Below, piece by piece: positions 36,801 to 62,700 of a stretch of DNA of 64,000 bases; position 1 is the stretch's first letter; each line of letters opens with the position of its first letter. The translations under genes and the position numbers were made by a program. The stretch is from Callorhinchus milii. Lineage: Eukaryota. The notes beneath the pieces are model-generated. The model searched no databases, had not been told where the DNA came from, and was given only the letters and a program-made list of their open reading frames with translations. The DNA is taken from contig NW_024704743.1 in NCBI RefSeq assembly GCF_018977255.1, forward strand, positions 12,030,001 to 12,094,000, read 5' to 3'.

Positions 36801-39800
36801 TCACCCTGACCATTTCCCCCCTGCTCGGGTCCTGACCTAACTGTACAGCGCCTTGAGACATCCTCCCGACGTGAAAGGCGCTCAATAAATGGAATCTTGT
36901 TGTTGTTGTTGCCACCACCACTGCAGTCCATTGATTATGTGCATTCCTGTAGCTTAGTGGTTAGAGTACTCGCCTTGCAAGCGAGAGGACTTGGACAGGG
37001 CAAAACCTTAGACAAATTTCCTTACTCCACACGCCACTGTTTACCTAGCAGTAAGTAGAAACCCAGTTGTTAGTCGATTGGCGGATCAATTATCCGGGGA
37101 TAATAATCCCTTCAAAATAAAAAATAATAATAATAATTTGGTCACTCAATCCACAACTGTTTGTGAGACACTGCTGTGCGCAATTGGCTGCCGCGTTTTG
37201 CCCACAAAATATACAATCAATTCACTTTACAGTATACTTTGCGAAGCGCTTTGAGGCTTCTTGAAGACGTGATACAAATACAAAAATGTATTTGTGTAGT
37301 GCCCTTCACATCGGGAGGATGTCCCAGGGCGCTGGACAGTCAGGAATTTGGACCCAAGCGGTGGGGGGGGTGGTTGGGATCAGGAAGAGTAGAGGGCAGG
37401 GGTAGGAGAGTGACCAAAGGTGCAATCGGAGAGGATCTTAAGACATGCCTTTAAGGAGGTAAGGGAGGGAGCGAGGCGGAGGGGCTGTGGGATGGAGTTC
37501 CAAAGGTGGGGGACAGAGAAGCTAAAGGCCTGATGGTGGTGTGGGCCGGGCAGGGGACCGTGACTCCATCACCTCCACCATTGCCCGGTTTCACTGGCTC
37601 ACCATCCTTCAGAGGATCAAGATCAAAATCCTTGTCCTCGCCTTCAGGGCCCTCCATGGCATTGCCCCCTCCTACCTCTGTGACCTCCTATATGGAGCAG
37701 GCTCTGGCCTGCTCCATGTTCCCCGCCCAGCCTACACTACAATCGGCGGCCAGGCCTTCAGCCTCTCTGCCCTAACCCTCTGGAACTCCATGCCACATTC
37801 CCTTTGCCTCGTTCCCTCCCTTGTCTCCTTCAAGACAGGCCTCAAGACCCTCCTCTTCGACCTCCTACCCTCTCTGCGATTCACCCTCCCTGATCCGACA
37901 CCCCACCCGACTCGCACCTAGAATATTGTCCTAACGATCCTGACTGTTCAGCGCCTTGGGATAAATATAATTTTGTATTGTATTGTATCGTACGCATACT
38001 TTCTGAAAATATATATACTTTCTGGATCAGTATGTTTCCAGCCCAATGAGGAAGGAAGCAGTGCTGGATCTAGTTCTGGGGAATGAAGGGGGGCAAGTGG
38101 AGCAGGTTTCAGTAGGAGAACATGTGGACAACAGTGATCACAACGTCATTAAGTTCAGAGTATTTATGGAAAGGGACAAGGTGAAGATACTCAACTGGAA
38201 GAGGTCTAATTTCCGTGAATTAAAAAGGGACCTCGCCAAGGTGGACTGGAAAGAAAGATTGACAGGTAAACCAGCTAATGAGCAATGGGAAGCTTCAAGG
38301 AGGAGATACAGGAGGAGAACAAATATATTCCCACAAATGGGAAAGGTAGGGCATCCAAACTTCCCTGGATAAATAAGGAGATTGGAATTAAAATAAAACA
38401 GAAAAAGGAGGCTTATGATAAATATCAGGTCCAAAACACAGAGGATAAACAAATAGAATATAGAAAATATGGAGGAGAACTGAAAAAGGAAATAAGAGAG
38501 GCAAAGAGATTGTATGAGAAAAGATTAGCGGGTAACATAAAAGGGAACCCTAAGGTATTTTAGAAGCATATAAAGAATAAAAGTTTAGCCAACGGTAGGG
38601 TGGGTCCAATTAGAGACCAACGAGAAAATCTTCTTGTGGAGGCCGAGGGCATGGCTGATGTGCTGAATGAGTACTTTCCATCTGTCTTCACAAAAGCGAA
38701 TGCCACAGTATCGGAGGAGAGGATAGAGAAATTGGATAAGACAAGAATAAACCGAGAGGAGGTACTAAAAAGGTAGATAAGTCACCTGGTCTGAACGGGA
38801 TGCATCCTAGTTTACTGAGGGAAACAAGGGTGGAAAATAACAGAGGCTCTGGCCACAATCTTTCAATCCTCCTTGGACACTGGTGTTGTGCCAGAGGACT
38901 GGAGGGTTCCAAATGTTACTGCCCTGTACAAAAAGGGGCAAAAGGATGAACCCAGGAACTACAGACCAGTCAGTTTAACGTCAGTAGTGGGGAAACTTCT
39001 AGAGACTATATCCTGGGACAAAATAAATTTTCACTTAGAAAAATGTGGGTGAATGAAGGACAGCCATCACTGATTTGTTAAAGGCAAATTGTGTCTAACA
39101 AACCTGATCATTTTTTGATGAAGTAACGGAAAGGGTGGTTGAAGGTAGTTGATATGGATTTTCAAAAGGTGTTTGACAAAGTGCCACATAAGAGTTTTGT
39201 AAGTAAAATAAAAGCCCATGGTATTTAAAGGGACAGTGGCAGCATGGATACTGAACTGGTTGGGAGACAGAAAGCAGAGAGAGGTGGTGAATGGTTGTTT
39301 CTCTGACTGGAGGGAAGTGTGCAGTGGTGTCCCCCAGGGGTCAGTATTGGGACCACTACTCTTTTTGATCTATATAAATAATCTGGACTTGGGTATAGGG
39401 AGTACAATTTTGCAGACGATACTAAGCTAGGAAAAGTCGTAAACAGTGAGGAGGATAGTAGCAGACTGCAACTGGACATAGACAGACTGGTAAAATGGGC
39501 CGACACGTGGCAGATGAAGTTTAATGTGGAGAAATGCAAAGTTATGCATTTTGGGAGGAAGAATGAGGAGAGGCAATATCAGCTGATGGTACAATCTTAA
39601 AAGGGGGTGAAGGAACAGAGAAAGCTGGGGGTTCATATTTGAAGGTGGCAGGACAGGTAGATAGATAAAGCTGTTAAAAAAGCATACTGGGCTTTATAAA
39701 TAGGGGCATAGAATACAAAAGTCAGGAAGTTATGATGAACCTTTATAAAACACTGGTTAGGCCTCAGCTAGAGACTGGGTTCAGTTCTGGGCACCACACT

Positions 39801-42800
39801 TTAGGAAGGATGTCAAGGCATTGGCAAAGGAGATTTGCAAGGATGGTACCAGGAATGAGGGACTTCAGTTATCAGGAGAGTCTAGAGAAGCTAAGATTAT
39901 TCTCCTTGGAGCAGAGAAGATTAAGAGGAGACTTAATAGAAGTTTTCAAAATTATGACGGGATTTGATAGGATGAACAAGGAGAAATTATTTCCACTGGC
40001 GGGTGCAATGGTAATCCGAGGACACCGATTTAAAATAGTTGTTAAAAGAAACAGAGGTTGAGGTGAGGAGAATTTTTTTCACTCAGCAAGTTGTTCGGAT
40101 CTGGAATGCATTGTCTCGTGGAAACTGATTTGATAACAACTTTTAAGAGAGAAGTAGATAATTATTTGGGGAGAACATGGTTGCAGGGCTATGGGGAGAG
40201 TGCGGGGGAGTGGGATTGATTTGGGTAGCTCTTTTCAAAGAGCAGGCATGGACACGATGAACCGAATGGCCTCCTTCTGTGCTGTATAATTCTATGATTC
40301 TATGATATTATTATTATGCTGGATTTTGTGTGCCAATCGTCAAATTCAACACTCAATCCCAATTTGCTCTGTTGCAGTGACTACCTCAGAAGCGAAGGAG
40401 TTGACTTTGGCGACTCCTCAAGTATTCACAAAGATGAAAGAATCAGGTAACATGGGGCCAAATGTCTGAGCTTTCTCCTTGTCCCCAGACCCATTTTCTC
40501 TCGCTCCTGAAGACCGAGAACGTGGGCATGGCCCGGGATTTTCTGCCCGTCCCTGGCTGTTCTGATGGTGGGGTGGGGAGGTATTGGAAACTGCTTCTTG
40601 TGGCAGTGGAGCTCCCAACATTGGGTTGGATTGTGGGAGGGAGGTGGGATAGCTCTAGGATTTTATCCAGCAGCAATGAAGGAACAGCAGTGTGGGTGGT
40701 GGGGTGGAGGTGGGCGGCAAGAGTGGATAGCATTTGGTGGTGCCAAGGGTGATAGGGGTTGGCAGTACAGGGGAGGGACTGTGGGATGGGGGTTAGCGGG
40801 AGTTGGCAGGGATGGGAGTAGTTGGGGGTGAGATTGTCAGGGCCATCAAGTGAAACTGCCTTTCCCTGTTCTCAGTCGGGTCGTGCGAGAAGCCTTGCTC
40901 TGACCACTTCATCTACCTCCTCCTGGAAAGGTTGAGATTACGATTAGTGTTTCTAAGATTCTAAAGGAAATAATGTTGACCATTGGCAAACTGTTTCATC
41001 TTGTCCAGAACAGCAGAATCAGAAGACACAGCCTGCAATTGTTGGGGAGTAAATTCAAAACTAATCTGTGAAAACACTATTTCACTGAGTGAGTGGTAAA
41101 TCCGTGGAACAGGCTCCTTAGGGAGATGGTGGAAGCAGATAGTGTTGATTCATTAAAATGCAAATTAGATAGATTTGTTTTGGAAAATAATATTTTGGGA
41201 TACAGTATATGCGTAATTTGATTCATGACATACAGTAAGTGTAATATGCTTGGAGGAACAAGGCATCTTTGGATCTAAGGTTTTGAAAGCTTTCAACTGT
41301 GATGGTAGACTAATCCATACAGATTTAATTCCCATCAGCACCTCCAGTATTGTACATGTGGCTACCAGAATGGTAGAAGGCGGACTTCATGGAACTTGAT
41401 CTTTTATCGGTTAGCAATTCCTTTGTTCCTAAACGCAGAGCCCACGCGGACATACACCCAGGATGGGGTCTGCCTGACCGAGCTGGGCATGTCACAGCTA
41501 CAGAGCCTGAGTGTGGCCGCCCCTCGGAGGAAACGGCCCAAACCGAAGCTGAAGCTGAAGATCATAAACCAGAACAGCGTGGCTGTGCTGCAGGCCTCGG
41601 TAGATCCCCAGTCAGAGCAGTCTCGAGACATGGAGGGCGACGTGGAAGACAACAGAGGTACAGAACTATGACTCAACTCCTTTTACATGAGCCAGAATCT
41701 AAACATTGCCCTTTTGCTTGTTTCCTCCTCCCGTCTGCCCTTCCCTGCTCCTCCTGTCTTCCCCCCCACCACCCCGGCCCCTATCTTCGCCCACCTCCAG
41801 TCACACCCCCTCCCCCTGTCTCCCCTCTGAAAGTACTTCAAGATTTACAGTAAGTTGATAGTGTGTTTGTAGGCAAATGCGGCAGTCAATTTACACACAG
41901 CAATGTCCCACAAACAGCTGTGAAGTGAGTGATCAATTTCATTTGGAGGAGTGTTGGCCAGGCCTCCGGGAGAAACTCCCTTCTCTTTTTGAGTAATAAT
42001 AATAATAATGATGATAATAATAATAATCCTTGCATTTGATAGAGCGCTTTTCACGTCTTCTAGATGTCTCAAAGCGCTTCACAGAATAGACTGTAAAGTG
42101 AATTGACTGTATATTTTGTGGGCGAAATGCAGCAGCCAATTGCGCACAGCAGTGAGTGTCCCACAAACAGTCAACAACTTGGATTTATATAGCGCCCTCC
42201 ACGCCGGACGGCGTCTCAGAACGCTTCACAGTAACAGATCCCGTGGCCGAGCCAGGGGGAAGGGGGTCAAGGTGACCAAAGGCGCAGTTGAAAAGAAAGG
42301 TCTTCAGCCGAGACCTGAAAATAGGAAGAGAGGGGGCGAGGCGAAGGGAGTGAGGAAGGGAGTTCCAGAGCCTTGGAGCGTAGTGGCTGAAGGCATGGCC
42401 GCTGAGGGTGGAGCGGAGGACTCGGGGGACAAGGAGGAGGCTAGACCTGGAGGATCGAAGGTCAGAGAGTTAGGGGAGTGCAGAGGAGTGGAGGGATTTG
42501 AAGACAAGGGTGGGGATCTTGAAGTCGATCCTCTCTGGACAGGCAGCCAGTGCAGTCTGGCAAGGACTGGGGTAATCGAGGAGCGGAGTTTGGTGCAGGT
42601 AAGAATGCGGGCGGCAGAGTTTTGTACGACCTGGATTTTATGGATGGTAGTGGAGGGGAGTCCAGCGAGGAGGGCATTTGAATAGTCCAGCCAGGAGGTG
42701 ACAAAGGCAAAGACCAGGGTTTCAGCGGCTTTTGGAGTGAGGTATTCGTGGATTGAAATGACCAATTTATTATTGTTCTGTTTTTTGGAGGGATTATTAT

Positions 42801-48800: not shown

Positions 48801-51800
48801 TCATTAGTACCGGACACTTTTGAAATGGGAAAGAGTTACTCTCTGGCGGAGTTAGTTGGTGGTCAGCAATCATTTGTCGCAACAGAGCCAGAAGCAGGGA
48901 GCTGCGGGCAGTCCAAGGGTGGCCGGGTCTGAATTTGAAGAGAAGAAGCAGCAGTGGGTTGTGAGTTCAGCTACAGTCAGCTCAGTGACTGCAGCCATCT
49001 TGCTATTGATTTCAAAGACTTCCTGGTCCAGTAAAGTGCCACTCTGGCCCTCACTCACGCTGGCCCTCACTCACGCTGGCCCTCACTCACGCTGGCCCTC
49101 ACTCACGCTGGCCCTCACTCACTTTGTCACTTGCTCGCTCTCAGTCTGTCACTCGCTCACTTTCACTCGCTCACTCTCAGGCTGTCACTCGCTCACTCTC
49201 AGGCTGTCACTTGCTCACTCTCTGTCACTCGCTCACTATCCTCACTCACTATCACTCATTTGTATTTTTATATATATATATAGTATACATATATATATAT
49301 ATAGAGAGAGAGAAATAAATGCTTTCAGTGTGGGTCTGTCACCTACAGAGAAACATTAAACCCTTTTTAATTGAAAGTCCGGATCTCCAATGATCGTGAG
49401 ATGAACTGGCTTAAGTAATGGAAGCTTTGGAGACTGAGACTCTGGCTACGGGAGCGCAATAGCATTTTGTCATTCGGTTCCGTGACCCATAAATCCGGAG
49501 GGAACTTTTCAGTGTGTGAAAGGTCTGATCGTAACCTCTCTTTTTGTTGCTCTGAGCAGCTTCTAGTGTACAGCTGCAAAGTGATGGGTAGGAAGTTTGT
49601 TCTCAGAAGTGCACAGCAAAACAGCTAGAGATTTAGGTTTTGATTGCTAGTTACAGAAGATCCCATGTGGAGTAATATTGACACAGTTACTTTCTCTTGA
49701 GTGAGTTTCTACAATTGACCTATAACCTCTATTTAATTTGACCATCGCCTCTAATCTTTTGTTTGTTCCAGAAGTGGGGGAGAGGTCCACAGAGCCTGCT
49801 CATCCTCTACACTCAGTCAACCTGAGCTTGTTATGCGTACCACCCCCCTACTCTTCTCCCCCGTGCCCCTCCTCACCCCCAATCTGCCATCAGCAGCAGA
49901 GCCTTCCAATTCTTTTCCAATTTTCCCCTAAGCTCTCAGACACCCCCTGCCCACTCGTGCCCTCTCTATCTGTCTTTTGATAGGCTTCCATAAAGACTGG
50001 AGCAGAGTTAATGAGTTGTGCTGTTGTGCAGGTGACCCGCTGGCTGACCTCTCCGAAGTGCTCACCACGGAGGTGGATATCCTGGGAATGCTCTCTGACG
50101 AACTGGGGAAAACCGGAGATGATTCAGGTAAGGGTAGGAATCACGTCTGTACAAGAGCAGCCAATCCCAGGCTTTCTTTCTATCTGCAGAAGCACATTAC
50201 GGTGTCCTGTCAAGTGCAAGCGTGTAGCTTATGTGTGTATTGCGTGTCTGTGTGTTGCGTGTGTGTTGTGTGTTGCGTGTCTGTGTGTTGTGTGTCTGTG
50301 TCTGTGTGTGTGTGTGTCTGTGTTGTGTGTGTGTGTGTCTGTGTTGCGTGTGTGTATGTGTTTGTGTTGTGTGATTGTGTCTGATGTCTGTGTGTTTTGT
50401 TTGTGTGTTGTGTGTGTTTGTGACTGTCTGTGTGTGTTGTGTGATTGTGTCTGTGTGTTTGTTGTGTGTGTGTGTTTGTGTCTGTGTTGGGTGTTTTAAA
50501 TCTCTCTTATACTTTTAGACTTAGCGCAGTGTTTCTCTGCTCGACTTGCCTTGGGACCTCAGCATCATTTATTGCACTGCTTTATACTGTGATGTGTGGT
50601 GTGCAATAGAGATGCATATTCTGTGTGTGTTTGTGAGTGTATGTGCGTTTTTATTTTTATGTTTCTTGTGTTTGATTTCTTTTTCTCGTTTTATTAATTT
50701 CATTTTTCTTTTTCAGCTCTTTTCCCGCCCTCCCCCACACACTCACTTTGTTTCCCTCTTTTTTTATTCATCCATTTTATCTGGTTTTGGGTCCCTTTGA
50801 GATCTTGATTTATGCACTTTCCAGGTCGAGAATTCACCCTCTCCATTTGGTAAGAGACTATAAAGCTGTGACTAGCCAGTAGCCAGTCCTTGTACAATGG
50901 TGCTCGTCTCGATTTCGAATCCTGTATGTGTGTGTGTGTGTCATAGAATCATGCAGCACAGAAAGAGGCCATTCGGCCCATCGTGTCTGCGATGGTTCCA
51001 AAACAAGCAATCCAACTCAATCCCACTGGCCTACTTTCTCTCCATAGCACTGCAATACTGTCCTCCCCAAATAACATAACATGTAGGAGCAGGAGTAGGC
51101 CATTCGGCGCTTCGAGCCTGCCCCGCCATTCAATCATGGCTGATCTTCTAATCTAACTCCAGCTAATAACCTGACCCTGCCTTATCCCCATATCCCTTAA
51201 TCTCTTTTGCAATAAGAAATCTATCTTTCTCAGTCTTGAATATGTTCAAATACTTCTCTCTTAAAAGTTGTTATTGAATCGGCTTCCACTACCCTTTCAG
51301 GTAATGCATTCTAGGTCCGAACACTCGCTGGGTGAAATTTTTTTCCTATTCTCCCCTCTTGTTTCTTTTAACAACTATCTTAAATCGGTGTCCTCGGGTT
51401 ACTGACCCACATGCCAGCGGAAGCAGTTTTTCCCGGTTCAACCTATCAAATCCTCTCCTGATCTTGAAAACCTCTATTAAATCCCCTCTTAATCTTCTCT
51501 GCCCTAGGGAGAATAACCCTAGTTTCGCTAACCTCTCCTCATAACTAAGCTCCTTCATTCCTGGTACCATCCTGGTAAACCTCCTTGGCACCCTAACCTC
51601 TTTCCTAAAGTGCGGTGCCCATAACTGAACGCAGTACTCCAACTGAGGCCTAACCAGCATTTTATAAATATTAAACTTTTGAATTCTCTGCCCCTATTTA
51701 TAAAGCATAGTATCCCATATGCTTTTTTAACAATTTTATCTACCTGTCCTGCCACCTTCAAAGATTTGCTTATATGGACCCCCAGATCTCTCTGTTCCTT

Positions 51801-54800
51801 CACCCCCTTTAAGATTGGACCATCAGCTTATATTGCCTCTCCTCATTCTTCCTACCAAAATGCAACACTTCACATTTCTCCACATTAAACCTCATCTGCC
51901 ACATTTCTGCCCATTTTACCAATCTGTCGATGTCCTCTTGCAGTCTGCTACTCCTTGTGAAGCGCACCATGTAAAAGCAAGTTGTTGTTGTGATGTTGGG
52001 AGAGGGCATCCACAACAGCGTAAAATGAGACATTTAGGAGAGGATCGAGATGTTTGAAATTATAAACGGCTTTCGAAAAGCTTAACTTAAATGGGCTGTT
52101 TCCACTGCTTGTGGGGGTCCATAACCAGGGGACAGAAGTATATAACAGCAATAGTTTGCCTCCAGATGCACAGTCACTACGCCTTAATCTGCAGCCTTGT
52201 GAATCCCAGCACCTGGAACTGTCCCTCTGCACACCAGTCTGCTTTGCATTCTCCCCCACCCCACTCCCAGCAAGAAAGCCACACTGTAAAATGCAAAGAT
52301 TTTTAAGTATTACTTACTTCAAATCAATCGCCTACAAATACAGTCACTACTCTAAAGAACATGTAAGAACATAAGAAATGCTAGACGATAAACGACTAAG
52401 ATCCATCTAGTTTGTCTTCCACCTTCCTGGTGGTCGCATGCACACATATGCGTACTATATCGCATTATGTTATTTCCTAAAAAGAAAAGGATCTAATCTG
52501 TGTTTGAAGGAATCAACATTTCCTGCTTCAACTGTCTCCCTAGGAGCCTGTTCTACAGGTCTACTATTTTCTCACTGAGATAATGTTTCCATAGATTTGT
52601 TCTGAAATTACCCCCCTTCACACCATATCCTCTGGTTTTACAATTCTGGACTAGTTGAAACAGCCTGTTATAGAATCATAGAATCATAGAATGATACGGC
52701 ACAGAAGGAGGCCATTCGGCCCATCGAGTCTGTGCCGGCTCTTTGACAGAGCAACTGACTTTTATTAACCCCACTCTTCAGCTTTCTCCCCATAACCCTG
52801 CAAACCCGTCTTCTCCAGATACGTATCCAGTTCTCTCTTAAAAGCTGTTATCGAATCGGACTTCACTGCCCTTTCGGGCAGATCATTCCAAATTCTAACA
52901 ACTCGCTGAGTGCAAAAAATTCTTCTAACCTCCCCTCTGCTTCTTTTGGTAGATATCTTAAGACTGTGATCACGAGTCACAGACACACCTACCAGCGGAA
53001 ACAGCTTTTCCCTATCTAGCCTGTCGAAACCTTATGATCTACAATGTCTAGCCCGTTTAGAATCTTAAAGACAGCGATCATGTCGCCTCTCAATCTTCTC
53101 TTTTCCAGTGTGAACATGCCCAATTTACTTAGTTGCTCCTCATAGTCCATTCCCTCCAATCCCTCAATCATTCTGGTCGCCCTCCTCTTGTATCCTCTCG
53201 ATTTCTCATATATCATGTAGGAGTCCTGTAGCTCAGTGGTTAGAGCACTCGCTTTGCAAGCAAGAGACCTGAGTTCACTTCCAGGCAGGGCGAAACCTTG
53301 GGCAAGTTTACTCCACACGCCTAATAATAATCCCTCCAAAAAAAACAATAATAAATTGGTCATTTTCAATCTACGACTTTTTGTGGGACATTGCTGTGCG
53401 CAATTGGCTGCTGCGTTCGCCCACAAATATACAGTCAATTCACTTTACAGTATACTCTGTGAAGCGCTTTGGGACGTCTAGAAGACGTGAAAAGCGCTAT
53501 ATCAAATGCAAGAATTATTATTATTATATCCATTTTGTACTGTGGCGACCAGAACTGTACAGAACTCTACCGCTCCACTCTAGCCTCGGCCAAATCGTCC
53601 TTCTACTCCAGGATAATCCTGGAGGCGAAGGACAAACCCAGGCTACTGTTCTCTACCACATCCCAACTCCTCCGTCCCCCCCGCCACCCCGCGCAGGTCA
53701 TCTCCTCCAACCTTCACTGCGAGGAGATGCTGGATTTCCTTGAATCCAAGATCAAGGGAATCCGCTCTGCGGTCACTTCCCCTCCAACATCCACCCACCA
53801 CCCACCCCTTCCCTCCCACACTCCGACTCCTACCCATCCTCCCCTACACACCTTCGTACCCGTTTCCCCATCCTCTGTCACCAAACTCATCCTCTCCCTG
53901 AAACCTACCACCTGCTCCCTTGACCCCATCCCCACTCCACTCCTTATCTCTCAGCTCCACCTCCTTGCCCCACATATCACAGACATCGTCAACCTGTCCC
54001 TCTCCTCTGGCTCTATTCCCATTCCCTTAAAAACTGCCACCATCACTCCCACCTTAAAAAAACCCTCCCTTGATGCGTCGCAGCTATCAAGCTACCGGCC
54101 CATCTCCAACCTCCCCTTCCTATCCAAGGTCCTGGAACGAGTTGTCGCCTCCCAGCTGCGCTCTTTCCTCTCCAACCATTCACTATTCGAACCCCTTCAA
54201 TCGGGTTTCCGTGCTGCCCATAGCACAGAAACTGCCCTGGTCAAGGTCACCAATGACATCCTGACCATCTGTGACCAGGGCTCCCTCTGCCTCCTCGTCC
54301 TCCTCGACCTATCGGCAGCATTCGATACGGTCGACCACGCTATCCTACTCCACCGCTTGTCCTCCCACCTAAACCTTCAAGGCCCTGTCCTTGAGTGGTT
54401 TAGGTCGTACCTCTCCCACCGTCTTCACTTTGTCTCCACAAATGGTTTTTCCTCCGGCCCCCGCACTGTCTCGTGCGGTGTCCCTCAGGGCTCTGTCCTC
54501 GGTCCCCTCCTCTTCACCCTCTATATGCTCCCCCTTGGTGACATCATCCGCAGACATGGGGTTAACTTCCACATGTATGCGGATGACACCCAACTCTACC
54601 TTTCCTCCTCTACCCTCAACTCCACGACCACCGATGTCCTGACAGCTGCCTGTCCGACATCGAGTCCTGGACGAGAGATAACTTTCTCCAGCTCAACGTG
54701 CGCAAAACTGAGGCCCTCCTGATTGGCTCACGTCAGCGCCTCCGCACCTCAGGCGCTGACAGCATCAGCATCCAAGGCTGCACTCTCCACCTCTCAAAGC

Positions 54801-57800
54801 CAATCAGGAACCTCGGTGTTCTGTTCGACCCTGAGCTGTCCTTTCTCCCCCATATCCGCGCCACAACTGGCACCGCCTTCCATCACCTCCGGAATGTCGC
54901 CAGACTACGGCACTACCTCACCCCTCACGCTGCTGAAACTCTGGTCCACGCCTTTATCACCTCAAGGCTGGACTATGGGAACTCTCTCCTCGCCGGCCTT
55001 CCCGCCACCTCCCTCCACAAGCTGCAGGTCATTCAGAACTCTGCAGCTCGTGTACTGTCCCGCACCAGGCTTCGCGACCACATCACTCCCACCCTCGCTC
55101 GCCTCCACTGGCTCCCCATCCCCCAGAGGATCGAATTCAAGATCCTCACCCTCACCTACAAGGCCATTCACGGCCTTGCTCCCCCCTACCTCTCCGACCT
55201 ACTATCCCCCTACCTACCTGCCCGTACCCTCCGTTCCTCTGGCTCCGGTCTGCTCCACATCCCACGCCCCAACCGCCCTACCATCGGTGGCCGGGCCCTC
55301 AGCCTCGAGGCTCTGGAACTCCATTCCCCAGTGCCTTCGCCGCCTCCTCCCTTTCCTCCTTCAAGGCCGGTCTCAAGACCTTTGACCGTGCCTTCAGCTC
55401 CCCTCTCGACTCTCTACCCCCTCCTCGCTCCCTCCTTTCCCTCCCCTCACCCTGACCATTTCGCCCCTGCTCCGACGTGAAAGGCGCTCAATAAATGGAA
55501 TCTTGTTGTTGTTGTTGTACACAGTGCTCTTTACAGAAAAAAATTCTGTGAAGCACTTTGTGATGTTTCGAACACATGATAAGGCATTCCATTCACTTTA
55601 CAGTGTATTCTATGAAGTACTTTGAGACATCTCAGTGACATGATAAGGCACTATATCAAATGCAAGGATTATTATATGATTATATTCTGTCGAATGTAAG
55701 GATTATTATTGTTACTTTATTATGACTATAACACTGTCCCTTGCTGTACATTCTGTCAATCTGTGTTTAGCTGGGCTGAATATTGGACACATGTCAGATG
55801 ATCCATCCAGCACTTCGCAATCGAGTGGAGGCCAGAGTTCAAGACCTTTGACCGAAGAGCAACTGGATCGAATCCTCAGCCCTGACCTGGAGAAGATAGT
55901 CACAGATGGTGAGATTGATATGCGGCCTTTTTTTGGCCAAGCTAAGCTGGACTCCAGCATTATAATAATAATAATAATCCTTGCATTTGATATAGCGCTT
56001 TTCACGTCGGGAGGACGTCCCAAAACGCTTCACAGAACACACTGTAAAGTGAATTGACTATATTTGTGGGCGAACGCGGCAGCCAATTGCGCACAGCAAT
56101 GTCCCACAAACAGTCGTTGATTGAAAATGACCAATTTTATTATTGTTTTTGTTTTTTTGGAGGGATTATAATTATCTCCCCAGGAAGGAGCGAGTCGGAG
56201 GACTAAGGGATGGAAGTCCAGAGCACAGGGTCAGAATAGCTGAAAGCTTACCTGCGGAGGTTAGGGCAGGGGACATGATTAGGCCAGTGTTTGCTGAGCA
56301 AAGGAAGTGGCTGGGTTAGTAAGGCTGTAAGTCTACAGAGCTAGCGGGGGAACAAGGCAGCGGAAGGGTTTAAAGGTGAGCGAGAGTCCTGAACTCTGGC
56401 TGCTGGGAAATGGTGTTCCAAAGGAGCTGAGCGAGGATGTTGTGGGGTGGGGATGATAGGCGCACAGAGCCTGGTCTGGGAGAGGACACAAGCTGCAGAA
56501 TTTTGGATAATCTGCAACTTGTATAGGGAGCCCACCAAACAGGGCATTAGTATAGTCAAGCCTGGACGTGATGAAAGCATGGATGAAAGGGGGGGTGGGG
56601 GAGAAAGAGAGGTAGTGACTGAGAAGGGAGATGTTATGGAGGTGAGAGAAAGATAATAGTCACCAGAGTTAGGTAAGCAGGGTAGAGTGTGGGAAAATCT
56701 CCCATCTATCAGTGGAAATGACATACATATTTGGAGCTCTGTCTGTCTGGTTAGGATAATCTCAATCACGGTGATGGGTTTCTTCGTGTGTCAGCACCCA
56801 GCTGACGAAAAAAAATGTACTGCCTTTGTTTGATTTGGTCTTTGTTCTGGAGGATTCTGCTATGAGTAACTAAAAGTATCCCTGTTTTTTTCATTTTGTT
56901 GTGCAGGAACAATTCTAAGCAAGCTGTACAAAATTCCAGGTATTTCTTTTCAACTTTTATGCATCCAAAACAGTTCACGTGAATTTGACTTTGTGACGGC
57001 TGAGATTTGGCCAGGCTAATGGTGTCGCTTATTCTTTTACAAAATGAAGAGCTGGAAGGGAAAGAAGTGGAAGATCTCTTTACAGCTGTGCTGAGTCCTT
57101 CTGCGAACCAGAGAGCCCCACCACCTGACCATGGTATAGTATCCGATTATTAGTGTATACACTACAGAGCAGCATTAATCAGCAACGGCTCTATTGTGCA
57201 CATGAAAACTGTGCGGATAATGGGATACAGCGCAAAATACAAATTGTCATCAGTGTTAATCAAAATCTTCTTTTCATCAGTGTGTCTGCACGTACTCATC
57301 TGTGTGTGCGTGTCTGTATGTGCACGTCCGTGTGTGCATGTGTGTGGGTGTCTGGGTGTGCATGTGTGTGTGGGTGTGCCTCTGTCTATCTCTCTGTCAC
57401 TGGCCATCTGTTTCTCTCTCTAACCCGAGTGCTCCCCAAGTTTCTACTTGCATGAAGAACTCTATATAAATGCAAGTTGTTGCTGTGTGTGTTTGTGGCT
57501 ATTTCTGTCTGTCTGTCTCTGTCACTCTCCCTCTGTCTGTTTCTCTCTCTCTGACCTCACACTGTAACAGATTCCTGTATAAAACCCGCTTACCTCTCGG
57601 TGCTTGTGAGAATGATGAATTCAGTAACCTCAAGAATACATGTGCAAATAGAGGTTTTCCCTAATGTCTCAAACGTTTCGAGCCAGTCATTGTGTGATAC
57701 ATAGCCTGCTCCTGCATTTAGACTAACTGACCCGTCCTTTGGGTGAGACGTTAAACCAAGGTCCCATCTGCCTGTTCAGGTGGATGTTAAAGGTCCCATG

Positions 57801-59574
57801 GCACTATTTGAAAAGAGAAGGGAGATTCTCCCAGTGCCATGGCTAACAATACCCCAAATAAAATTGGTTACTTGTTCTACGACTGTGTGTGGGATATTGC
57901 TGTGTGCAAACTGGCTGCTGTGTTCACCCACAAAGTAGATAGTAATTCCATTTTACATCATATCCTGTGAAGCGCTTTGAGATGAGTTGATGATGTGATA
58001 AGGCACTATATCAAATGTAAGGATTATTATTAACACTTTACGCTAAATCCTGTGAAGTGCTTGGAGACGTCCTCCTGATGTGAAAGGAAAGGTACTGTTT
58101 TAAACCTATTGACGGATTTATTTTTTCCCCCCTCTCCTCCCCGCTTCTGCCCCCACTTGATGAAGGAGAGGGTGGGTTTCCGAGGGTGGCAGCAATGAAT
58201 GGCCTGATGAGAGCAAACCAGCAGCATCAGTCTCCTCTAACACCCGGGAGTGGGCCCTGCCTCAGCAACACTTACTCGCCCATGCCTCCGTCACCATTCC
58301 CTGAAAACAGCCGGTTAGTGGACCTCGTTATTCCTTGTGTTTCAAAGTCTCTGAGCATTTCCAAAGGGGAAAACTTCATCTCACACACACACCTACAGGC
58401 ACACACACACACAGACTCTGAGGCTTGACAAAATGCATTTACTGTTTTCTGCTTCAGACTAAAATAAATCGAGATGTTGGCAAGTTTACAATAGGGTTAA
58501 AATTTGTGGTATTCCTCAAACCATTCCTGCAATTATTTGAGGGAACACTTTTAGGAGTGCCAGCAGGTGGCACCTCTATCCAGGTCAGTGGGCCTGTAAA
58601 CAATCACTCGCAACCAGACTTGCTTAGAAGGGCCGAGAAGGCCAAAGAAATTAAATTTAAACACTGAGCCTGGAGGCTTCGGGCCTTCGGTAAGTTAAGG
58701 AATGCTTTAAGAAATTCTGTAATTTTTCCCTATATGTAAATAGTGTTTCCGTTTTGTATATAACGTTTACAGTTTGTCCCTTCCCAAGTGGGCACTGTTC
58801 ATGTGTGAGTCTTGGTGTTGGCAGACCACGTGACTGCAGAGAGCGTCATAGCCGAGCTGACATCTCCCCACCCGGCTGCCACACAAGCAGTGGAGGGTGC
58901 AGGAACGCTAACTGGCTCTCCCCACGCACCCAGACCATTAGGACAATCCTGCTAGATTTAATTTAAAATCTTTGTTTGTTTAAAAGCTAAACAAACTTGG
59001 CAGAAAGCTTCAGGCAGTTTTTCAACCCCTCACTCACCTCTTCATAACGTCTAGGCCCCATTCCACGGATGCCCTACACAAGCTGTGGGTCTGTCTAAAC
59101 ATCTGACTCCCTCAACAATGTCCCCTCCCACCTCAAAAACCCACATTAAGGACGAGCTTTTTGACCACCTTTTCATCCTTTACACTCCCCCCCACCCCAC
59201 TGAGCTCCATCGGACACCCCCCCCCCAGCTCGAACTCGTTGTATGAAGCACATTGGGTAGTTGCAGTGATCCAAAAGGCACAATATAAATGTAAACTGTT
59301 AATGACTTCTTGTTGTAAAACACGTGTGCTTAACCAGTTGGAATGGATTGATTTAACAGGGAGAAGAGCCACAGGTTCAGTCCAGTGATCAGCGAGCCAG
59401 CTGGGCCCTGGATTTCCTCGGCTCCTGCAGTTGAGGTGGAGGGGGACTCGCTGAACTACACCCAGCGCAGCACGCTGAAATGGGAGAAGGAGGAAGCCCT
59501 GGGAGAGATGGCGACGGTCGCTCCTGTTCTCTACACCAACACCAACTTCCCCAACCTGAAGGAGGACTTCCCCG
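703..59574 (+). CDS. KMT2C: Histone-lysine N-methyltransferase 2C (MLL3) family gene, internal multi-exon portion (24 exons; 5' and 3' parts outside window)
   Basis: Exon peptides match hallmark KMT2C motifs ([133 protein letters not shown]). All introns are GT-AG with compatible phases. Summed length is 3782 nt with no stop. Confidence 0.95.
2695..3715. repeat. GT/G-rich low-complexity tract
   Basis: Degenerate (TG)n interspersed with G runs. Confidence 0.95.
3892..4224 (-). mobile_element. Young tRNA-derived SINE copy
   Basis: Reverse complement of 43654-43974. Confidence 0.93.
4225..4652 (+). mobile_element. L2 LINE 3' fragment, same family as 53562-55515
   Basis: Near-identical to 55150-55515; ends gacgtgaaaggcgctctataaatgcaatc...(TTG)n. 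Confidence 0.92.
5094..5269 (+). CDS. KMT2C: KMT2C exon (176 nt): [59 protein letters not shown]
   Basis: cctcAG acceptor; GTaagc donor at 5270; phase 0-2; Cys-rich zinc-finger pattern. Confidence 0.96.
5640..6130 (+). mobile_element. Ancient Deu-domain SINE, SacSINE1-like (other copies ~1640-2110 +, 16380-16730 +, 20660-20835 -, 23110-23450 -, 33460-33780 -, 42975-43160 -, 57730-58030 +)
   Basis: Head gcctctgag.cagaaggttgtgggttcaagtccc; core gatgagacgttaaaccgagg...caggtggatgttaaagatcccatggcactatt; family name recalled, not searched. Confidence 0.75.
6542..6711 (+). CDS. KMT2C: KMT2C exon (170 nt): [29 protein letters not shown]...
   Basis: cctccAG acceptor; GTgagg donor at 6712; completes the PHD finger; phase 2-1. 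Confidence 0.93.
7145..8270 (+). mobile_element. Older L2 fragment interrupted by a younger L2 3' end
   Basis: Peptides [24 protein letters not shown]; internal L2 tail ending (TTG)n at ~7710. Confidence 0.85.
7393..7624 (+). repeat. 46-bp tandem repeat x5 expanded from the L2 3' UTR
   Basis: ctcctcgctccctcccttccctcccctcaccctgaccatttccccc repeated; present once in other L2 tails. Confidence 0.92.
8999..9118 (+). CDS. KMT2C: Probable KMT2C linker exon (120 nt): [39 protein letters not shown]
   Basis: acgtAG acceptor; GTagga donor; phase 1-1; open acidic frame in unique sequence. Little recognisable homology, so the call rests on splice signals and phase. Confidence 0.7.
9150..10612. repeat. 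G-rich minisatellite, ~38-43 bp unit (G)n-aggggctgtgtgattggacactgtgcgtgt, roughly 35 copies
   Basis: Directly visible tandem array; explains the long Pro/His ORFs on the minus strand. Confidence 0.97.
10767..11479 (+). CDS. KMT2C: KMT2C large acidic/Pro-rich exon (713 nt) ending [24 protein letters not shown]
   Basis: ORF 10751..11512; atccAG acceptor in phase 1; GTagga donor at 11480; conserved C-terminal motif. Confidence 0.92.
12702..12781. repeat. 31-bp tandem repeat x2.6
   Basis: ccactcaggaatactttctctctatatagtt. Confidence 0.9.
14903..15117. mobile_element. Possible degenerate hAT-type MITE
   Basis: Ends cagggcggtcaaact and aggttggatcatcct resemble hAT terminal inverted repeats; subterminal gggccg/gcggcc motifs; no clear 8-bp TSD. 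Confidence 0.4.
15280..15834 (+). mobile_element. Unclassified interspersed repeat with A-rich end (about 10 partial copies in window)
   Basis: Homologous segments at ~8320-8600 (-), 20085-20185, 21925-22010, 24868-25135 (-), 34183-34620 (-), 48040-48130, 48560-48715, 56765-56815, 59608-59665 (-). Confidence 0.8.
16972..17088 (+). CDS. KMT2C: KMT2C exon (117 nt, phase 0-0): [39 protein letters not shown]
   Basis: poly-T tract plus cctAG acceptor; GTaaat donor; resembles recalled human GAWS...SPPSWS...AIWSIKV. Confidence 0.88.
17420..17745. repeat. Degenerate G-rich minisatellite (tgtagtgaggtgggggaggg...)
   Basis: Recurring motif visible. Confidence 0.8.
19616..19732 (+). CDS. KMT2C: KMT2C exon (117 nt): [39 protein letters not shown]
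   Basis: gacAG acceptor; GTaagt donor; conserved Gly/Arg-rich motif. Confidence 0.95.
20936..21037 (+). CDS. KMT2C: KMT2C exon (102 nt): [34 protein letters not shown]
   Basis: ttgcAG acceptor; GTaaga donor; MHNTVVLFS motif. Confidence 0.96.
22277..22381 (+). CDS. KMT2C: KMT2C exon (105 nt), start of second PHD cluster: [35 protein letters not shown]
   Basis: ctctcAG acceptor; GTgaga donor. Confidence 0.97.
22477..22840 (+). mobile_element. Older, longer subfamily of the tRNA-derived SINE (similar copies ~6135-6445, 18260-18606, 29630-29960, 32423-32850, 36945-37270, 47225-47500)
   Basis: Same head and tail plus an extra block tctgtttacctagcagtaagtaggaacc...gattggcggat; more diverged. Confidence 0.88.
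24033..24214 (+). CDS. KMT2C: KMT2C exon (182 nt): [61 protein letters not shown]
   Basis: gacAG acceptor; GTaagt donor; canonical PHD finger. Confidence 0.98.
25554..27330 (-). mobile_element. Decayed L2 LINE RT fragment interrupted by a SINE at ~26480-26810
   Basis: Minus-strand ORFs with [42 protein letters not shown]. Confidence 0.92.
26480..26810 (-). mobile_element. Young tRNA-derived SINE copy inserted in an L2
   Basis: Reverse complement of the same family; interrupts L2 at the SGF|RPAHSTE motif. Confidence 0.92.
26728..28807. repeat. ~1.04-kb direct tandem duplication (26728-27766 / 27765-28807)
   Basis: Two nearly identical copies sharing GG at the junction. Confidence 0.95.
30498..30662 (+). 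CDS. KMT2C: KMT2C exon (165 nt): [55 protein letters not shown]
   Basis: ccccAG acceptor; GTaata donor; phase 2-2. Confidence 0.96.
31450..32025 (+). mobile_element. L2 LINE 3' fragment
   Basis: SRLDY-like region through the 3' tail. Confidence 0.85.
33907..34016 (+). CDS. KMT2C: KMT2C exon (110 nt): [36 protein letters not shown]
   Basis: tgtcAG acceptor; GTaagg donor; completes last PHD of the second cluster. Confidence 0.96.
34628..35662. mobile_element. Two adjacent L2 fragments in opposite orientation (- 34628-35300; + 35305-35662)
   Basis: Minus: HMYADD and SRLDY peptides; plus: L2 3' UTR ending (TTG)n. Confidence 0.85.
35935..36650 (-). mobile_element. CR1 LINE 3' fragment
   Basis: Minus ORFs [31 protein letters not shown]. 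Confidence 0.9.
37275..37960. mobile_element. Head-to-head L2 3' fragments (- 37275-37540; + 37555-37960)
   Basis: Plus peptide [31 protein letters not shown]; reversed L2 tail upstream. Confidence 0.8.
38020..40305 (+). mobile_element. Decayed CR1-clade LINE ORF2 (end of endonuclease, RT, 3' UTR with TTCTATGA repeats)
   Basis: Peptides [54 protein letters not shown]; many stops and frameshifts. Confidence 0.93.
40378..40446 (+). CDS. KMT2C: KMT2C exon (69 nt): [23 protein letters not shown]
   Basis: ttgcAG acceptor; GTaaca donor; phase 1-1; resembles recalled AQIVTKVKEL. Confidence 0.85.
41439..41657 (+). CDS. KMT2C: KMT2C exon (219 nt): [52 protein letters not shown]...
   Basis: acgcAG acceptor; GTacag donor; strongly conserved motifs. 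Confidence 0.96.
42172..42746 (-). mobile_element. L2 LINE 3' fragment inserted inside a SINE
   Basis: Minus ORF with [12 protein letters not shown]...VQNSAARIL...LHWLP; SINE halves on both sides. Confidence 0.88.
43654..43974 (+). mobile_element. Young tRNA-derived SINE (tRNA-Ala-like head, Deu-like core, L2-like tail, (TTA)n)
   Basis: A box TAGCTCAGTGG, anticodon arm CTCGC-TTTGCAA-GCGAG, B box GAGTTCAATTCC; near-identical copies elsewhere in the window. Confidence 0.93.
44406..44540 (+). CDS. KMT2C: KMT2C exon (135 nt): [45 protein letters not shown]
   Basis: ttacAG acceptor; GTaaga donor; [10 protein letters not shown] motif. Confidence 0.95.
44660..45190. repeat. Degenerate (TG)n tract
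   Basis: Low complexity. Confidence 0.9.
46116..46238 (+). CDS. KMT2C: KMT2C exon (123 nt): [41 protein letters not shown]
   Basis: atcAG acceptor; GTgagt donor; [10 protein letters not shown] motif. Confidence 0.96.
46634..46764 (+). CDS. KMT2C: KMT2C exon (131 nt): [44 protein letters not shown]
   Basis: cccAG acceptor; GTcagt donor. Confidence 0.96.
47574..47772 (+). CDS. KMT2C: KMT2C exon (199 nt): [16 protein letters not shown]...AKAAGGQ
   Basis: ttgcAG acceptor; GTttgt donor; EAFFGKxLLD motif. Confidence 0.93.
49044..49260. repeat. 16-bp tandem repeat (ctggccctcactcacg x~5) grading into TCAC-rich repeats
   Basis: Directly visible. Confidence 0.9.
50032..50127 (+). CDS. KMT2C: KMT2C exon (96 nt): [32 protein letters not shown]
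   Basis: gtgcAG acceptor; GTaagg donor; DPLADxSEVL motif. Confidence 0.94.
50230..50495. repeat. Degenerate (TG)n tract
   Basis: Low complexity. Confidence 0.9.
50802..50849 (+). CDS. KMT2C: Candidate alternative 48-nt KMT2C cassette exon: [16 protein letters not shown]
   Basis: Long T-rich tract, weak tttgAG acceptor, strong G|GTaaga donor; phase 1-1 and frame-preserving between exons 50032-50127 and 55771-55908. Confidence 0.7.
50940..51955 (-). mobile_element. CR1 LINE 3' fragment with a nested second CR1 3' end
   Basis: Minus ORFs [38 protein letters not shown]. Confidence 0.9.
52360..53215 (-). mobile_element. Nested CR1 LINE 3' fragments
   Basis: (TCATAGAA)n tail at ~52670; peptides TQRVVRIWN and [17 protein letters not shown]. 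Confidence 0.85.
53220..53527 (+). mobile_element. Young tRNA-derived SINE copy
   Basis: Same family, full head to (TTA)n tail. Confidence 0.92.
53562..55515 (+). mobile_element. Young 5'-truncated L2-clade LINE (RT domain through 3' UTR and (TTG)n tail), one frameshift near 54645
   Basis: ORFs 53469..54722 and 54698..55480 contain [58 protein letters not shown]; flanked by TGTACA at 53556-53561 and 55516-55521. Confidence 0.95.
55771..55908 (+). CDS. KMT2C: KMT2C exon (138 nt): [46 protein letters not shown]
   Basis: gtttAG acceptor; GTgaga donor; RPLxEEQLD motif. Confidence 0.94.
55960..56175 (-). mobile_element. 5'-truncated copy of the young SINE
   Basis: Reverse complement of core and tail. 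Confidence 0.9.
56907..56939 (+). CDS. KMT2C: KMT2C 33-nt exon: [11 protein letters not shown]
   Basis: gtgcAG acceptor; GTattt donor; matches recalled GAILGKLYKIP. Confidence 0.93.
57050..57133 (+). CDS. KMT2C: KMT2C exon (84 nt): [28 protein letters not shown]
   Basis: tgaAG acceptor after a 110-nt intron; GTatag donor just before an in-frame [14 protein letters not shown] motif. Confidence 0.88.
58166..58313 (+). CDS. KMT2C: KMT2C exon (148 nt): [50 protein letters not shown]
   Basis: Pyrimidine tract then AAG/GAG tandem acceptor (start 58166 or 58169); GTtagt donor; phase 1-2; MNGL motif. Confidence 0.85.
58560..58573 (+). promoter_or_regulatory. CTCF core-motif match CCAGCAGGTGGCAC
   Basis: Fits the CCASYAGRKGGCRS consensus in non-repetitive intron sequence; motif match only. 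Confidence 0.45.
59360..59574 (+). CDS. KMT2C: KMT2C exon (215 nt) leading into the HMG box: [71 protein letters not shown]
   Basis: taacAG acceptor; GTatgc donor; highly conserved motif. Confidence 0.97.
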
Positions 59575-59704: not shown

Positions 59705-62700
59705 TATCATAGACTCAGAATTATACAGCACAGAAGGAGGCCATTTGACCCATCGTGTCTTGCTGGCTCTTTGAAAAGAGCTATCCAAATCTATCCCCAC
59801 TCTGTCCCCGCAGCCCAGCAAACTTGTCCTCCCCAAATAATTATCTACTTCTCTCTTAAAAGTTGTTATCGAATCGGCTTCCACCGACCGCCCTTTCAGG
59901 CAATACATTCTAGATCCGAACAACTCGCTATGTGAAAAAATTTCTCCTCACCTCCCCTCTGTTTCTATTAACAACTATTTTAAATCGGTGGTCTCGGGTT
60001 ACCGACACCCATCCACCAGGGAAGTAGTTTCTCCTTGTTCACCCTATTGAATCCCCTTCTATTAAGTCTCCTCTTAACCTTCTCTGCTCCAAGGAGAATA
60101 ATCTTAGCTTCTCTATCCTCTCCTGATAACTGAAGTCCCTCATCCCTGGTACCATCCTGGTAAATCTCCTTTGCAGCCTCTCCAATGCCTTGACATCCTT
60201 CCTAAAGTGTGGTGCCCAGAACTGAACCCAGTCTCTCGCTGAGGCCTAACCAGTGTTTGATAAAGGTTCATCATAACTTCCTGACTTTTGCATTCTATGC
60301 CCCTATTTATAAAGCCTAGTATCCCGTATGCTTTTTTAAGAGCTTTATCTACCTGTCCTACCACCTTCAAAGATTTACTTATATGAACCCTCAGGTCTCT
60401 CTGTTCCTTCACCCCCTTTAAGATTGTACCATCAGCTTATATTGTCTCTCCTTATTCTTCCTCCCAAAATGCATCACTTTGCATTTCTCCACAATAAAAC
60501 TTAAGCTTCCACATGTCTGCCCATTTTACCAGTCTATTTATGTTAATTTTCAGTCTGCTACTATCCTCCTCACTGTTTACTACTTTTCCTAGCTTCGTAT
60601 CATCTTGGAAACTGTACTCCCTATACCCAAGTCCAGGTCATTTATATAGATCAAAAACAGTAGTGGTCCCAATACCGACCCCGGGGGGACACCACTGTAC
60701 ACTTCCCTCCAGTCAGAAAAACAACCGTTCACCACCTCTCTCTGCTTTCTGTCTCCCAACCAGTTCTGTATCCATGTTGCCATTGTCCGTTTAATACCGT
60801 GGGCTTCTATTTTGCTTACAAGTCTCTTGTATGGCACTTTATCAAACGCCTTTTGAAAATCCATATAAACTACATCAACTGCACTACCTTCATCCATCCT
60901 CTCCATTACTTCATCAAAAAACTAATCAGGTTTGTTAGACATGATTTGTGACTTGTTTACCTTGAGCACCATTAAGGGATTAGACGGGGAGAAATGCAGA
61001 GCAGACTCAGTCAGTCTTGGAGTGCATGTGCGTAAATGCACGGAGTGTGACAAATAATATTGGTGAGTTGCAGGCTCAAGTTGCCACATGGGATTATGAT
61101 GTAGTGGCAATAACGGAGACCACTACATCAGTTTATTCTTATCTCATCCAATTTCTCGGTTTATTCTTATCTCATCCAATTTCTCTACCCTTTCCTCCGA
61201 TACTGTGGCATTGGCTGCATCCTCTTCTTTTGTGAAGACAGATGCAAAGTACTCATTCAGTACGTCAGACATGCCCTCTGCCTCCACAAGAAGATTTCCT
61301 CTTTGGTCCCTAATTAGACCCACTCTACCTTTGACTTATCTTTTATTCTTTAAATGCTTATAAAATACCTCATACAATCTCTTTGCCCCTCTTATTTCGT
61401 TTTCAGTTCTCCTCTGTACTTTCTGTATTCTATTTGATTATCTTCTGTATTTTGGACCTGACATTTATCATAAGCCTCCTTTTTCTGTTTTATTTTAATC
61501 CCAATTTCCTTATTCATCCAGGAAGATTTGGATCCCCTACCTTTCCCCTTTCTGGGAACGTATTTGTTCTGTCTCCAAACTAACTCCTCCTTGAAGGCTT
61601 GCTTGTTAGCCGTTTTACCTGCCAAACTTTCCAGCCCACCTTGGCCAGGTCCCTTTTTAACTCACTGAAATTAGTCCTCTTCTGGTTGAGTATCTTCACT
61701 TTTGATTGTTCCTCGTCCCTTTCAATAAATACTCTAAACCTAATGAATTTGTGATCACTGTTGTCCAGATGCTTTCCAACTGAAACCTGCTCAACTTGCC
61801 CCACTTCATTCCCCAGAACTGCTTCCTTCCTTGTTGGGCTGGAAACATAGTGATCCAGAAAGTTATTATGTACACAATTCAGGAATCCTTCCCCCTCCTG
61901 GCCCTTTACACTGTTATTTTCCAATCGATGTTAGGATAATTGAAGTTCCCCATTATCACTACTCTATTGGTTTTGCATCATTCTGAAATCTGCTTGCAGA
62001 TTAACTTGTCAATCTCCTTCCGACTATTTTGCGGTCTATAGCATACACCTAAAAGAGTAACAGCTCCTTTTCTGCTCCTTAACTCTAACCAAATGGATTC
62101 TGTTTTTGGACCCTCTAGCACATCGAGAGCCGTAACCAGGTCTTCAATCAATATTGCCAACCCCCTTTTTTTTCCTTCCCTATCACTCCTGAATACATTG
62201 TAGCGAGGAATATTCAGCTCCTATTCCTGCCCTTGTTTGAGTCAGGTCTGTATTGCCACTACATCATAATCCCATGTTGCAACTTGAGCCTGCAATTCAC
62301 CAATATTATTTGTCACACTCCGTGCATTTACGCACGTGCTCTCCAAGACTGACTGAGTCTGCTCTGCATTTCTCCCCGTCTAATCCCTTCTTTTTCTGGA
62401 CTACTCCTTATTGCATTGCGTATGCCAACTCCCTGCTTGTCGGTCTCCCCAACTGTTCCCTCCACAAGCTGCAGATCATCCAGAACTCTGCAGCTCGTGT
62501 GCTCTCCTGCACCAGGCTCCGTGACCCCATTACCCCCACCCTCGCCCAGCTCCACTAACTCTCCATCCCTCAGAGGTTTGAGTTCAAAATTCTCATCCTC
62601 ACCTTCAAGGCCCTCTATAGCCTTGCCCCGTCCTACCTCTCCAACCTGCTGACCTCTTATCAACCTGTCCGCTCCTTCCGTTCAGCAGGCTCTGGCCTGC

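What the first reader, a model, noticed from the sequence alone, without database searches (positions are those of the whole stretch)
50640..50860. Hidden in-frame 48-nt cassette exon with a rare GAG acceptor
Seen: about 160 nt of T-rich tract, then tttgAG|AT CTT GAT TTA TGC ACT TTC CAG GTC GAG AAT TCA CCC TCT CCA TTT G|GTAAGA. It is phase 1-1 and inserts [16 protein letters not shown] to give ...[27 protein letters not shown]. It is absent from the ORF track and from the canonical human protein as I recall it; I recall a similar ...FQV..SPSPF peptide in fish isoforms (unverified). An internal tttccAG at 50824, preceded by TGC, could yield a frameshifting 25-nt form. The SPSP motif is a potential proline-directed phosphorylation site (inference).
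Basis: partly seen in the sequence, partly recalled or inferred. Interest (0 to 1): 0.7.

Follow-up and report, generated by a model that had tools for sequence, protein, structure and literature searches.

The report
Ancient optional exon, weakened in chimaera
A 48-base optional piece of the histone-marking gene KMT2C, shared by sharks, bony fish, amphibians, reptiles, birds and mammals, is still intact but unannotated in this cartilaginous fish, where its entry signal has changed to an unusually weak form and it seems mostly skipped.

Summary
The exon is real. 50802-50849 is a 48-nt, phase 1-1 exon in a KMT2C (MLL3) intron; the window's exons match Callorhinchus milii XP_007908022, and both versions of that model skip it. 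The orthologous 16-aa insert is in 237 of 440 proteins retrieved (queries were biased towards it), from sharks to placentals including two lemuriform primates; nine species show both forms. One amniote-like genomic contig (L001) has 43 of 48 exon bases identical, 13 of 16 third positions (9 of 31 in the flanking exon) and an identical 20-nt intronic element. The GAG acceptor is not shared: L001 has TAG|GT, and all 237 inserts begin with Gly, not Asp. The main RNA-like contigs of three same-species runs skip the exon; inclusion was not seen, but the output was cut. SPSP is not conserved (4 of 26 distinct peptides). Neural regulation and the 25-nt form have no support. Best reading: an ancient regulated cassette, already in RefSeq elsewhere, whose acceptor weakened in this lineage and is probably still used at low level. 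No earlier scan note on it was found.

The parts
50032..50127 (+). upstream KMT2C exon (96 nt), donor CAG|GTAAGG, phase 1
   Evidence: exact match to P0001 (C. milii KMT2C)
50648..50798 (+). T/pyrimidine-rich intron end; no AG between 50717 and 50799
50714..50716 (+). strong CAG (15 of 17 pyrimidines); with the cassette donor it would give a 133-nt frameshifting exon; no evidence of use
50768..50787 (+). 20-nt intronic element identical in L001; holds two branch-point-like yUnAy adenosines (50770, 50779) and two YCAY motifs
   Evidence: (longest common substring 20; 100 shuffles max 16, mean 10.3); the branch-point role is inferred
50799..50801 (+). GAG acceptor, followed by A at +1; L001 has TAG followed by G
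50802..50849 (+). 48-nt phase 1-1 cassette exon coding the 16-aa insert [16 protein letters not shown]
50822..50824 (+). internal CAG; would give a 25-nt frameshifting form; also present in L001, where it is coding (Gln)
   Evidence: no evidence of use
50850..50863 (+). donor GTAAGA and adjacent intron bases shared with L001
55771..55908 (+). downstream KMT2C exon (138 nt), TAG acceptor

Best explanation
This is the chimaera copy of an alternatively spliced 48-nt KMT2C exon at least as old as jawed vertebrates. Shown: the exon, its donor and a 20-nt intronic element are conserved; relatives annotate both the skipped and the included form; the skipped form dominates in three same-species runs. 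Inferred: the exon is defined by a strong donor and a weak 3' site. The branch point lies in the conserved element (A50770 or A50779), and the first AG downstream is the GAG at 50801, so the exon can be spliced there in frame. In this lineage the acceptor drifted from YAG|G to GAG|A, the least efficient class, so inclusion is probably low or limited to tissues not seen here. Inclusion adds a 16-aa acidic-hydrophobic segment to a linker with no Pfam domain, about 200 aa before the HMG box. Its best-kept core is FQ[VI]E...SPF, so it most likely tunes a short-motif protein contact or a phosphosite rather than catalysis (inference). Silencing by a YCAY-binding protein of the NOVA type is a weak lead only.
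For: Gene identity. Insert at the same junction in 116 of 120 hits (the query carried the insert) and 237 of 440 proteins held; 15 of 16 residues identical to sharks, crocodilian, turtles, birds, gar and marsupials. Both forms within Cetorhinus (6 of 8 include), Heterodontus (7 of 9), Pleurodeles (10 of 12), Physeter (8 of 9), Manis pentadactyla (4 of 5), Nycticebus (3 of 4), Dromiciops (4 of 5), Equus przewalskii (7 of 9), Equus caballus (2 of 3). Against L001: 43 of 48 nt, and third positions 13 of 16 against 9 of 31 in the upstream exon (Fisher p = 0.0016); a long-dead exon would not look like this. Absence from an annotation is weak evidence: Hemiscyllium includes it in 0 of 5 models while Chiloscyllium punctatum has it. 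The RefSeq model of this gene already uses 2 purine(-3) AAG acceptors among 19. Order CAG > UAG > AAG > GAG: PMC11802449, passages.
Against: No inclusion junction was seen in this species. The main contigs of X1, X2 and X3 align from 55769 with no mismatch, which fits the upstream exon's end (CAG) and not the cassette's (TTG); X2's depth in 49950-50150 (13.8) equals 30.8 x 90/201, the skipped form. A depth-7 contig of X1 runs unspliced across the exon. No Asp-first insert among 440 proteins, and no C. milii inclusion model among the 120 listed of 196 hits. 0 of 19 annotated acceptors in the window are GAG. Only one other genomic copy was seen, so 'this lineage only' rests on L001 plus the Gly-first proteins; the -3 base in sharks is unknown. 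YCAY density is unremarkable (96 of 1114 windows reach 4).
Confidence: 0.65

Rival explanations
1. The exon has been switched off in this lineage. The GAG|A change abolished in-frame inclusion fairly recently, or the bases are kept for an RNA-level role, so the 16-aa insert is no longer made.
For: Skip form only in three runs; 0 of 2 C. milii models include it; the two changes hit the -3 and +1 positions of the acceptor and an otherwise invariant Gly; the RBFOX-type TGCATG and the ACTAAT found downstream in L001 are absent from the window between -100 and +198.
Against: Donor, 20-nt element and synonymous sites are intact against an amniote-like sequence; assembled contigs drop minor forms, and 809 joints were not shown; the acceptor differs from L001 at several positions, not at one fresh hit.
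Confidence: 0.2
2. With the GAG weak, the donor pairs with another acceptor (CAG 50824, 25 nt; or CAG 50716, 133 nt), so the exon acts here as a frameshifting poison exon that lowers KMT2C by nonsense-mediated decay.
For: Both are CAG with 12 and 15 pyrimidines; both forms meet an early stop; the internal site is present in L001; decay would hide it from contigs. Poison exons are reported for KMT2C, though in intron 17 (PMC11925151, passages).
Against: Branch-point-like adenosines lie only 13 and 17 nt before 50824, or require passing the GAG; conservation of the internal site is explained by the Phe-Gln-Val codons; no read evidence.
Confidence: 0.08
3. The GAG|A is an assembly error or a private allele; the species has an ordinary YAG|G acceptor.
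For: Not checked at base level; X1's contig across the site shows 13 other letters and 2 gaps at places not listed.
Against: It needs two errors three bases apart in non-repetitive sequence; that contig ends inside a repeat, which can account for its differences (inference).
Confidence: 0.05

Closest known systems
Orthologous 16-aa KMT2C insert in RefSeq predicted isoforms (e.g. Cetorhinus XP_078393106.1, Pleurodeles XP_069067214.1, Nycticebus XP_053464427.1; Scyliorhinus torazame GCB60659.1)
   Same: Same junction, same length, same phase; 15 of 16 residues identical to the shark, turtle and bird form.
   Different: First residue Asp instead of Gly; GAG|A acceptor instead of TAG|G (L001); not in either C. 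milii model; not seen included here.
Ancient frame-preserving cassette exons with conserved synonymous sites and flanking intron (general class; class features recalled)
   Same: Multiple of 3, symmetric phase, weak 3' site, high third-position identity, conserved intronic element.
   Different: The weak acceptor here is lineage-restricted rather than conserved; tissue pattern unknown.
SRRM3/4-dependent neural microexons (features recalled)
   Same: Short, in-frame, conserved across vertebrates, in a neurodevelopmental-disorder gene.
   Different: 48 nt is above the 3-27 nt class; no TGC in the 100 nt before the acceptor in the window; no neural evidence.
NOVA-silenced exons (YCAY clusters at the branch point or in the exon; PMC3165201, passages)
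   Same: Four YCAY at -34, -30, +32, +41, all kept in L001.
   Different: Density not unusual; not among the Mll3 rows of PMC5989265 Dataset S9.

Membership tests
KMT2C/MLL3 gene | PHD, HMG, FYRN/FYRC, SET architecture; orthology to named KMT2C | tested here: met
   2yuk, E 1e-18; P0001 = C. milii KMT2C
conserved cassette exon (orthologue of the KMT2C 48-nt exon) | same peptide at the same junction in other vertebrates | tested here: met
conserved cassette exon (orthologue of the KMT2C 48-nt exon) | both skipped and included forms annotated within a species | tested here: met
   nine species (predicted models, not reads)
conserved cassette exon (orthologue of the KMT2C 48-nt exon) | nucleotide constraint on synonymous sites and flanking intron | tested here: met
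   one comparison only (L001)
conserved cassette exon (orthologue of the KMT2C 48-nt exon) | inclusion junctions in this species | tested here: inconclusive
   skip form in 3 of 3 same-species runs laid; contigs only; 809 joints not shown
conserved non-YAG (GAG) acceptor | G at -3 shared with other species | tested here: not met
   L001 has TAG|GT; one genome only; sharks not seen
SRRM3/4 neural microexon | length 3-27 nt and TGC just upstream of the acceptor (recalled) | tested here: not met
   48 nt; no TGC at -100..-1 in the window; -70 and -56 in L001
SRRM3/4 neural microexon | neural-specific inclusion | not testable with these tools
   tissues of the runs are not given
NOVA-silenced exon | conserved YCAY cluster at branch point and in exon | tested here: inconclusive
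   4 of 4 kept in L001; 96 of 1114 windows have as many
poison exon | use of a frameshifting acceptor with decay sensitivity | not testable with these tools
   frameshift and stop shown; use not shown
conserved SPSP phospho-motif | SPSP kept across orthologues | tested here: not met
   4 of 26 distinct peptides; any S-P in 23 of 26
CtBP-binding PXDLS / GLDLSKK motif | DLS core with following Lys (PMC3671672, passages and a reference title) | tested here: not met
   the insert reads GLDLCTF; Asp is replaced in some fish and carnivores; teleost KMT2C-like copies lack LDLC

The most novel reading that the evidence does not exclude
A KMT2C isoform switch kept since the last common ancestor of jawed vertebrates, unstudied in the papers searched, toggles a short linear motif (FQ[VI]E...SPF) that changes which cofactor this enhancer methyltransferase binds in particular tissues. 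If the exon is also in human, variants in it would be missed by analyses that use only the canonical transcript.
Probability: 0.2. Interest if true: 0.6.

Novelty: new member of a known kind. Interest (0 to 1): 0.35.

Why it matters
It corrects the C. milii gene model and pushes the exon back to the root of jawed vertebrates. It points to a conserved, apparently unstudied alternative segment of a major cancer and neurodevelopmental gene. The GAG|A acceptor in an otherwise intact exon is a neat, testable case of how far a 3' splice site can weaken before a conserved exon is lost. It is not a new kind of system: the exon is already in many RefSeq isoforms.

Tried and rejected
No whole genome is held for this window. 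No RNA holder was listed as such. The single read-laying run covered 49950-55960 at 90% likeness and was swamped by interspersed repeats: 809 joints, 3320 loose ends and 106065 pieces were not shown; X9 (organism B) gave only repeat matches. A protein search with the 45-aa downstream exon found 0 of 40 candidates (limited to 80-2000 aa). Pfam: 0 families on five exon peptides. RNA structure over acceptor and exon: z = +0.38 (window) and +0.69 (L001), rejected. The degenerate exon pattern found 0 matches in viral and 0 in prokaryote contigs. An idea that the frog Lys before the insert reveals an AAG acceptor was dropped: that 5-aa extension begins like a donor read-through of the upstream exon. 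CtBP-motif idea: fails on residues and conservation. Literature: 9 searches listed nothing on this exon by title or abstract start; the peptide word had 0 papers. Supplements: PMC5989265 (12 of 15 files searched) lists 4 Mll3 exons of 120, 105, 213 and 162 nt, none of 48; PMC4930328 (2 files), PMC3737533 (1 of 2) and PMC5630039 (16 of 27 files not searched) gave 0 hits. One PNAS paper on conserved brain exons was not held, and the supplements of bioRxiv 10.64898/2026.09.05.749416 (listing only) are closed; these and VastDB could hold tissue data for the exon. Earlier scan notes: none relevant. No structure or complex was predicted.

Full report
Gene and coordinates. The window holds part of a KMT2C (MLL3) gene on the + strand. 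The exon at 59358-59573 matches the MLL3 HMG structure 2yuk (E 1e-18). The best library hit, P0001, is 100% identical over the query and is Callorhinchus milii KMT2C, XP_007908022.1; 20 of its exons map to the window. The candidate lies between exons 50032-50127 and 55771-55908. It is 48 nt (50802-50849), phase 1-1, with G at -3 of the acceptor, A at +1 and donor TTG|GTAAGA. Both C. milii models (P0001, P0151) skip it.

The peptide is deeply conserved. Among 150 representatives found with an unrelated exon of the gene, the catshark protein GCB60659.1 carries the insert with 15 of 16 residues identical; eel, bonefish and halosaur proteins carry close variants, and three teleost KMT2C-like proteins carry a shorter 12-aa form that keeps FQ[VA]E and lacks LDLC. 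A search with a newt inclusion isoform listed 120 of 475 hits, 116 with the insert (biased by the query). Over all 440 proteins held, 237 have it: sharks, rays, gar, bowfin, amphibians, squamates, turtles, alligator, birds, marsupials and placentals, including slow loris and mouse lemur. Nine species show both forms among their listed models, for example Cetorhinus 6 of 8, Heterodontus 7 of 9, Pleurodeles 10 of 12. These are predicted models, and isoforms of one species are not independent.

One genomic orthologue was found. A degenerate pattern hit one metagenome contig, L001, which holds vertebrate DNA whose upstream exon codes a sauropsid-like peptide. Exon identity is 43 of 48 nt. Third codon positions are identical at 13 of 16, against 9 of 31 in the upstream exon (p = 0.0016). 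A 20-nt intronic stretch, 50768-50787, is identical (100 shuffles: max 16, mean 10.3), and the donor is the same. So the exon is under nucleotide-level constraint, and the window's copy has not decayed.

The GAG acceptor is the odd part, and it is not shared. L001 has TAG|GT. All 237 inserts (26 distinct peptides) begin with Gly, which needs G at +1; the window gives Asp. Of 19 acceptors used by P0001 in the window, 15 are CAG, 2 TAG, 2 AAG and none GAG. GAG is last in the efficiency order CAG > UAG > AAG > GAG (PMC11802449, three passages). There is no AG from 50717 to 50799, and branch-point-like adenosines sit 32 and 23 nt before the GAG inside the conserved element, so by scanning (PMC1636351, four passages) the GAG is the first AG met. 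That step is inferred. The -3 base in sharks and other holocephalans could not be seen.

RNA evidence favours skipping and cannot exclude minor inclusion. The main contigs of X1, X2 and X3 (depth 62, 31, 108; RNA status is a guess) align to 55769-55909 with no mismatch. The two extra bases fit the end of the upstream exon and not of the cassette, and X2's depth over the upstream exon bin (13.8) equals the value for the skipped form (13.8; 6.7 if included). In X1 a depth-7 contig crosses the exon unspliced. Contigs drop minor branches, and most joint rows were cut by repeat matches. No C. milii inclusion model appeared among 120 listed of 196 hits. Absence from annotation is weak: Hemiscyllium has 0 of 5 while Chiloscyllium punctatum has it, and Diceros has 0 of 3 while horses have it.

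The 25-nt form frameshifts and stops in the downstream exon, but nothing shows its use, its nearby branch-point candidates are only 13 and 17 nt away, and its TGC is a Cys codon that is Tyr in two elasmobranchs. SPSP is in 4 of 26 distinct peptides; placentals read SSPFPF or SSPCAF, many squamates and frogs NSSSPF; some S-P remains in 23 of 26. There is no TGC in the 100 nt before the acceptor, so it does not look like an SRRM3/4 microexon (features recalled). Four YCAY motifs at the branch point and in the exon are kept in L001, the positions where Nova silences (PMC3165201, 12 of 19 passages), but their density is ordinary and the exon is not among four Mll3 rows in PMC5989265 Dataset S9. 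No RNA structure was supported.

How it most likely works. A strong donor and a weak, regulated 3' site define an optional exon that adds 16 residues to a linker with no Pfam match on its flanking exons, about 200 residues before the HMG-like stretch (residues 1110-1125 against 1325-1375 in P0003). Catalytic domains are untouched; a short-motif contact or phosphosite is the likeliest target (inference). In this lineage the acceptor has weakened further. I give 0.65 to low or tissue-limited in-frame use, 0.2 to silencing, 0.08 to a poison form and 0.05 to a sequence error. That the element is the orthologue of a real cassette exon is close to certain.

Literature and novelty. Nine searches found no paper on this exon (listings only, except where stated). 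Passages on KMT2C in PMC11925151, PMC11863264 and PMC8437376 do not describe it. Supplement coverage was partial, and VastDB, closed supplements or subscription papers may hold it. The exon is already in RefSeq for many vertebrates; what is new is the unannotated chimaera copy with its GAG|A acceptor. Verdict: new member of a known kind, interest 0.35.

Noticed in passing
window 57047-57049 and 58163-58165: Two further purine(-3) acceptors (AAG, both preceded by ATG) are needed to reproduce the RefSeq protein; 2 of 19 acceptors in this stretch. Not checked by reads.
   Followed up: partly
window 50714-50716: A strong polypyrimidine CAG 85 nt upstream of the GAG; with the cassette donor it would give a 133-nt exon with an internal stop.
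   Followed up: partly
proteins P0197, P0200, P0224, P0227, P0246, P0259 (frogs): A 5-aa extension precedes the insert and begins like a donor read-through, probably a 15-nt alternative donor of the upstream exon.
   Followed up: no
placental proteins, e.g. P0252, P0258, P0296, P0348, against P0182: The downstream exon starts with or without three residues, a likely 9-nt alternative acceptor; the window has a single acceptor there.
   Followed up: no
L001 about 120 and 155 nt after the exon start; window about 50922: L001 has TGCATG and ACTAAT downstream of the exon (RBFOX- and QKI-type motifs, recalled); the window aligns TGTATG there, next to a TG repeat, so the match may be chance.
   Followed up: partly
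proteins P0078, P0090, P0071: Teleost KMT2C-like copies carry a 12-aa version of the insert lacking LDLC.
   Followed up: partly
L001 (metagenome contig, 20,927 bases): A metagenome collection holds a vertebrate genomic contig with KMT2C exons, i.e. host DNA.
   Followed up: no
window 53463-55480, 37526-37918, 38007-40061, 62241-62828: Degenerate reverse-transcriptase-like (LINE) frames and many short repeats fill the introns (class judged from the translations, not searched); they swamped the read mapping.
   Followed up: no
proteins P0152, P0153: Two 56-aa proteins clustered with C. milii KMT2C look unrelated to the exons seen here.
   Followed up: no
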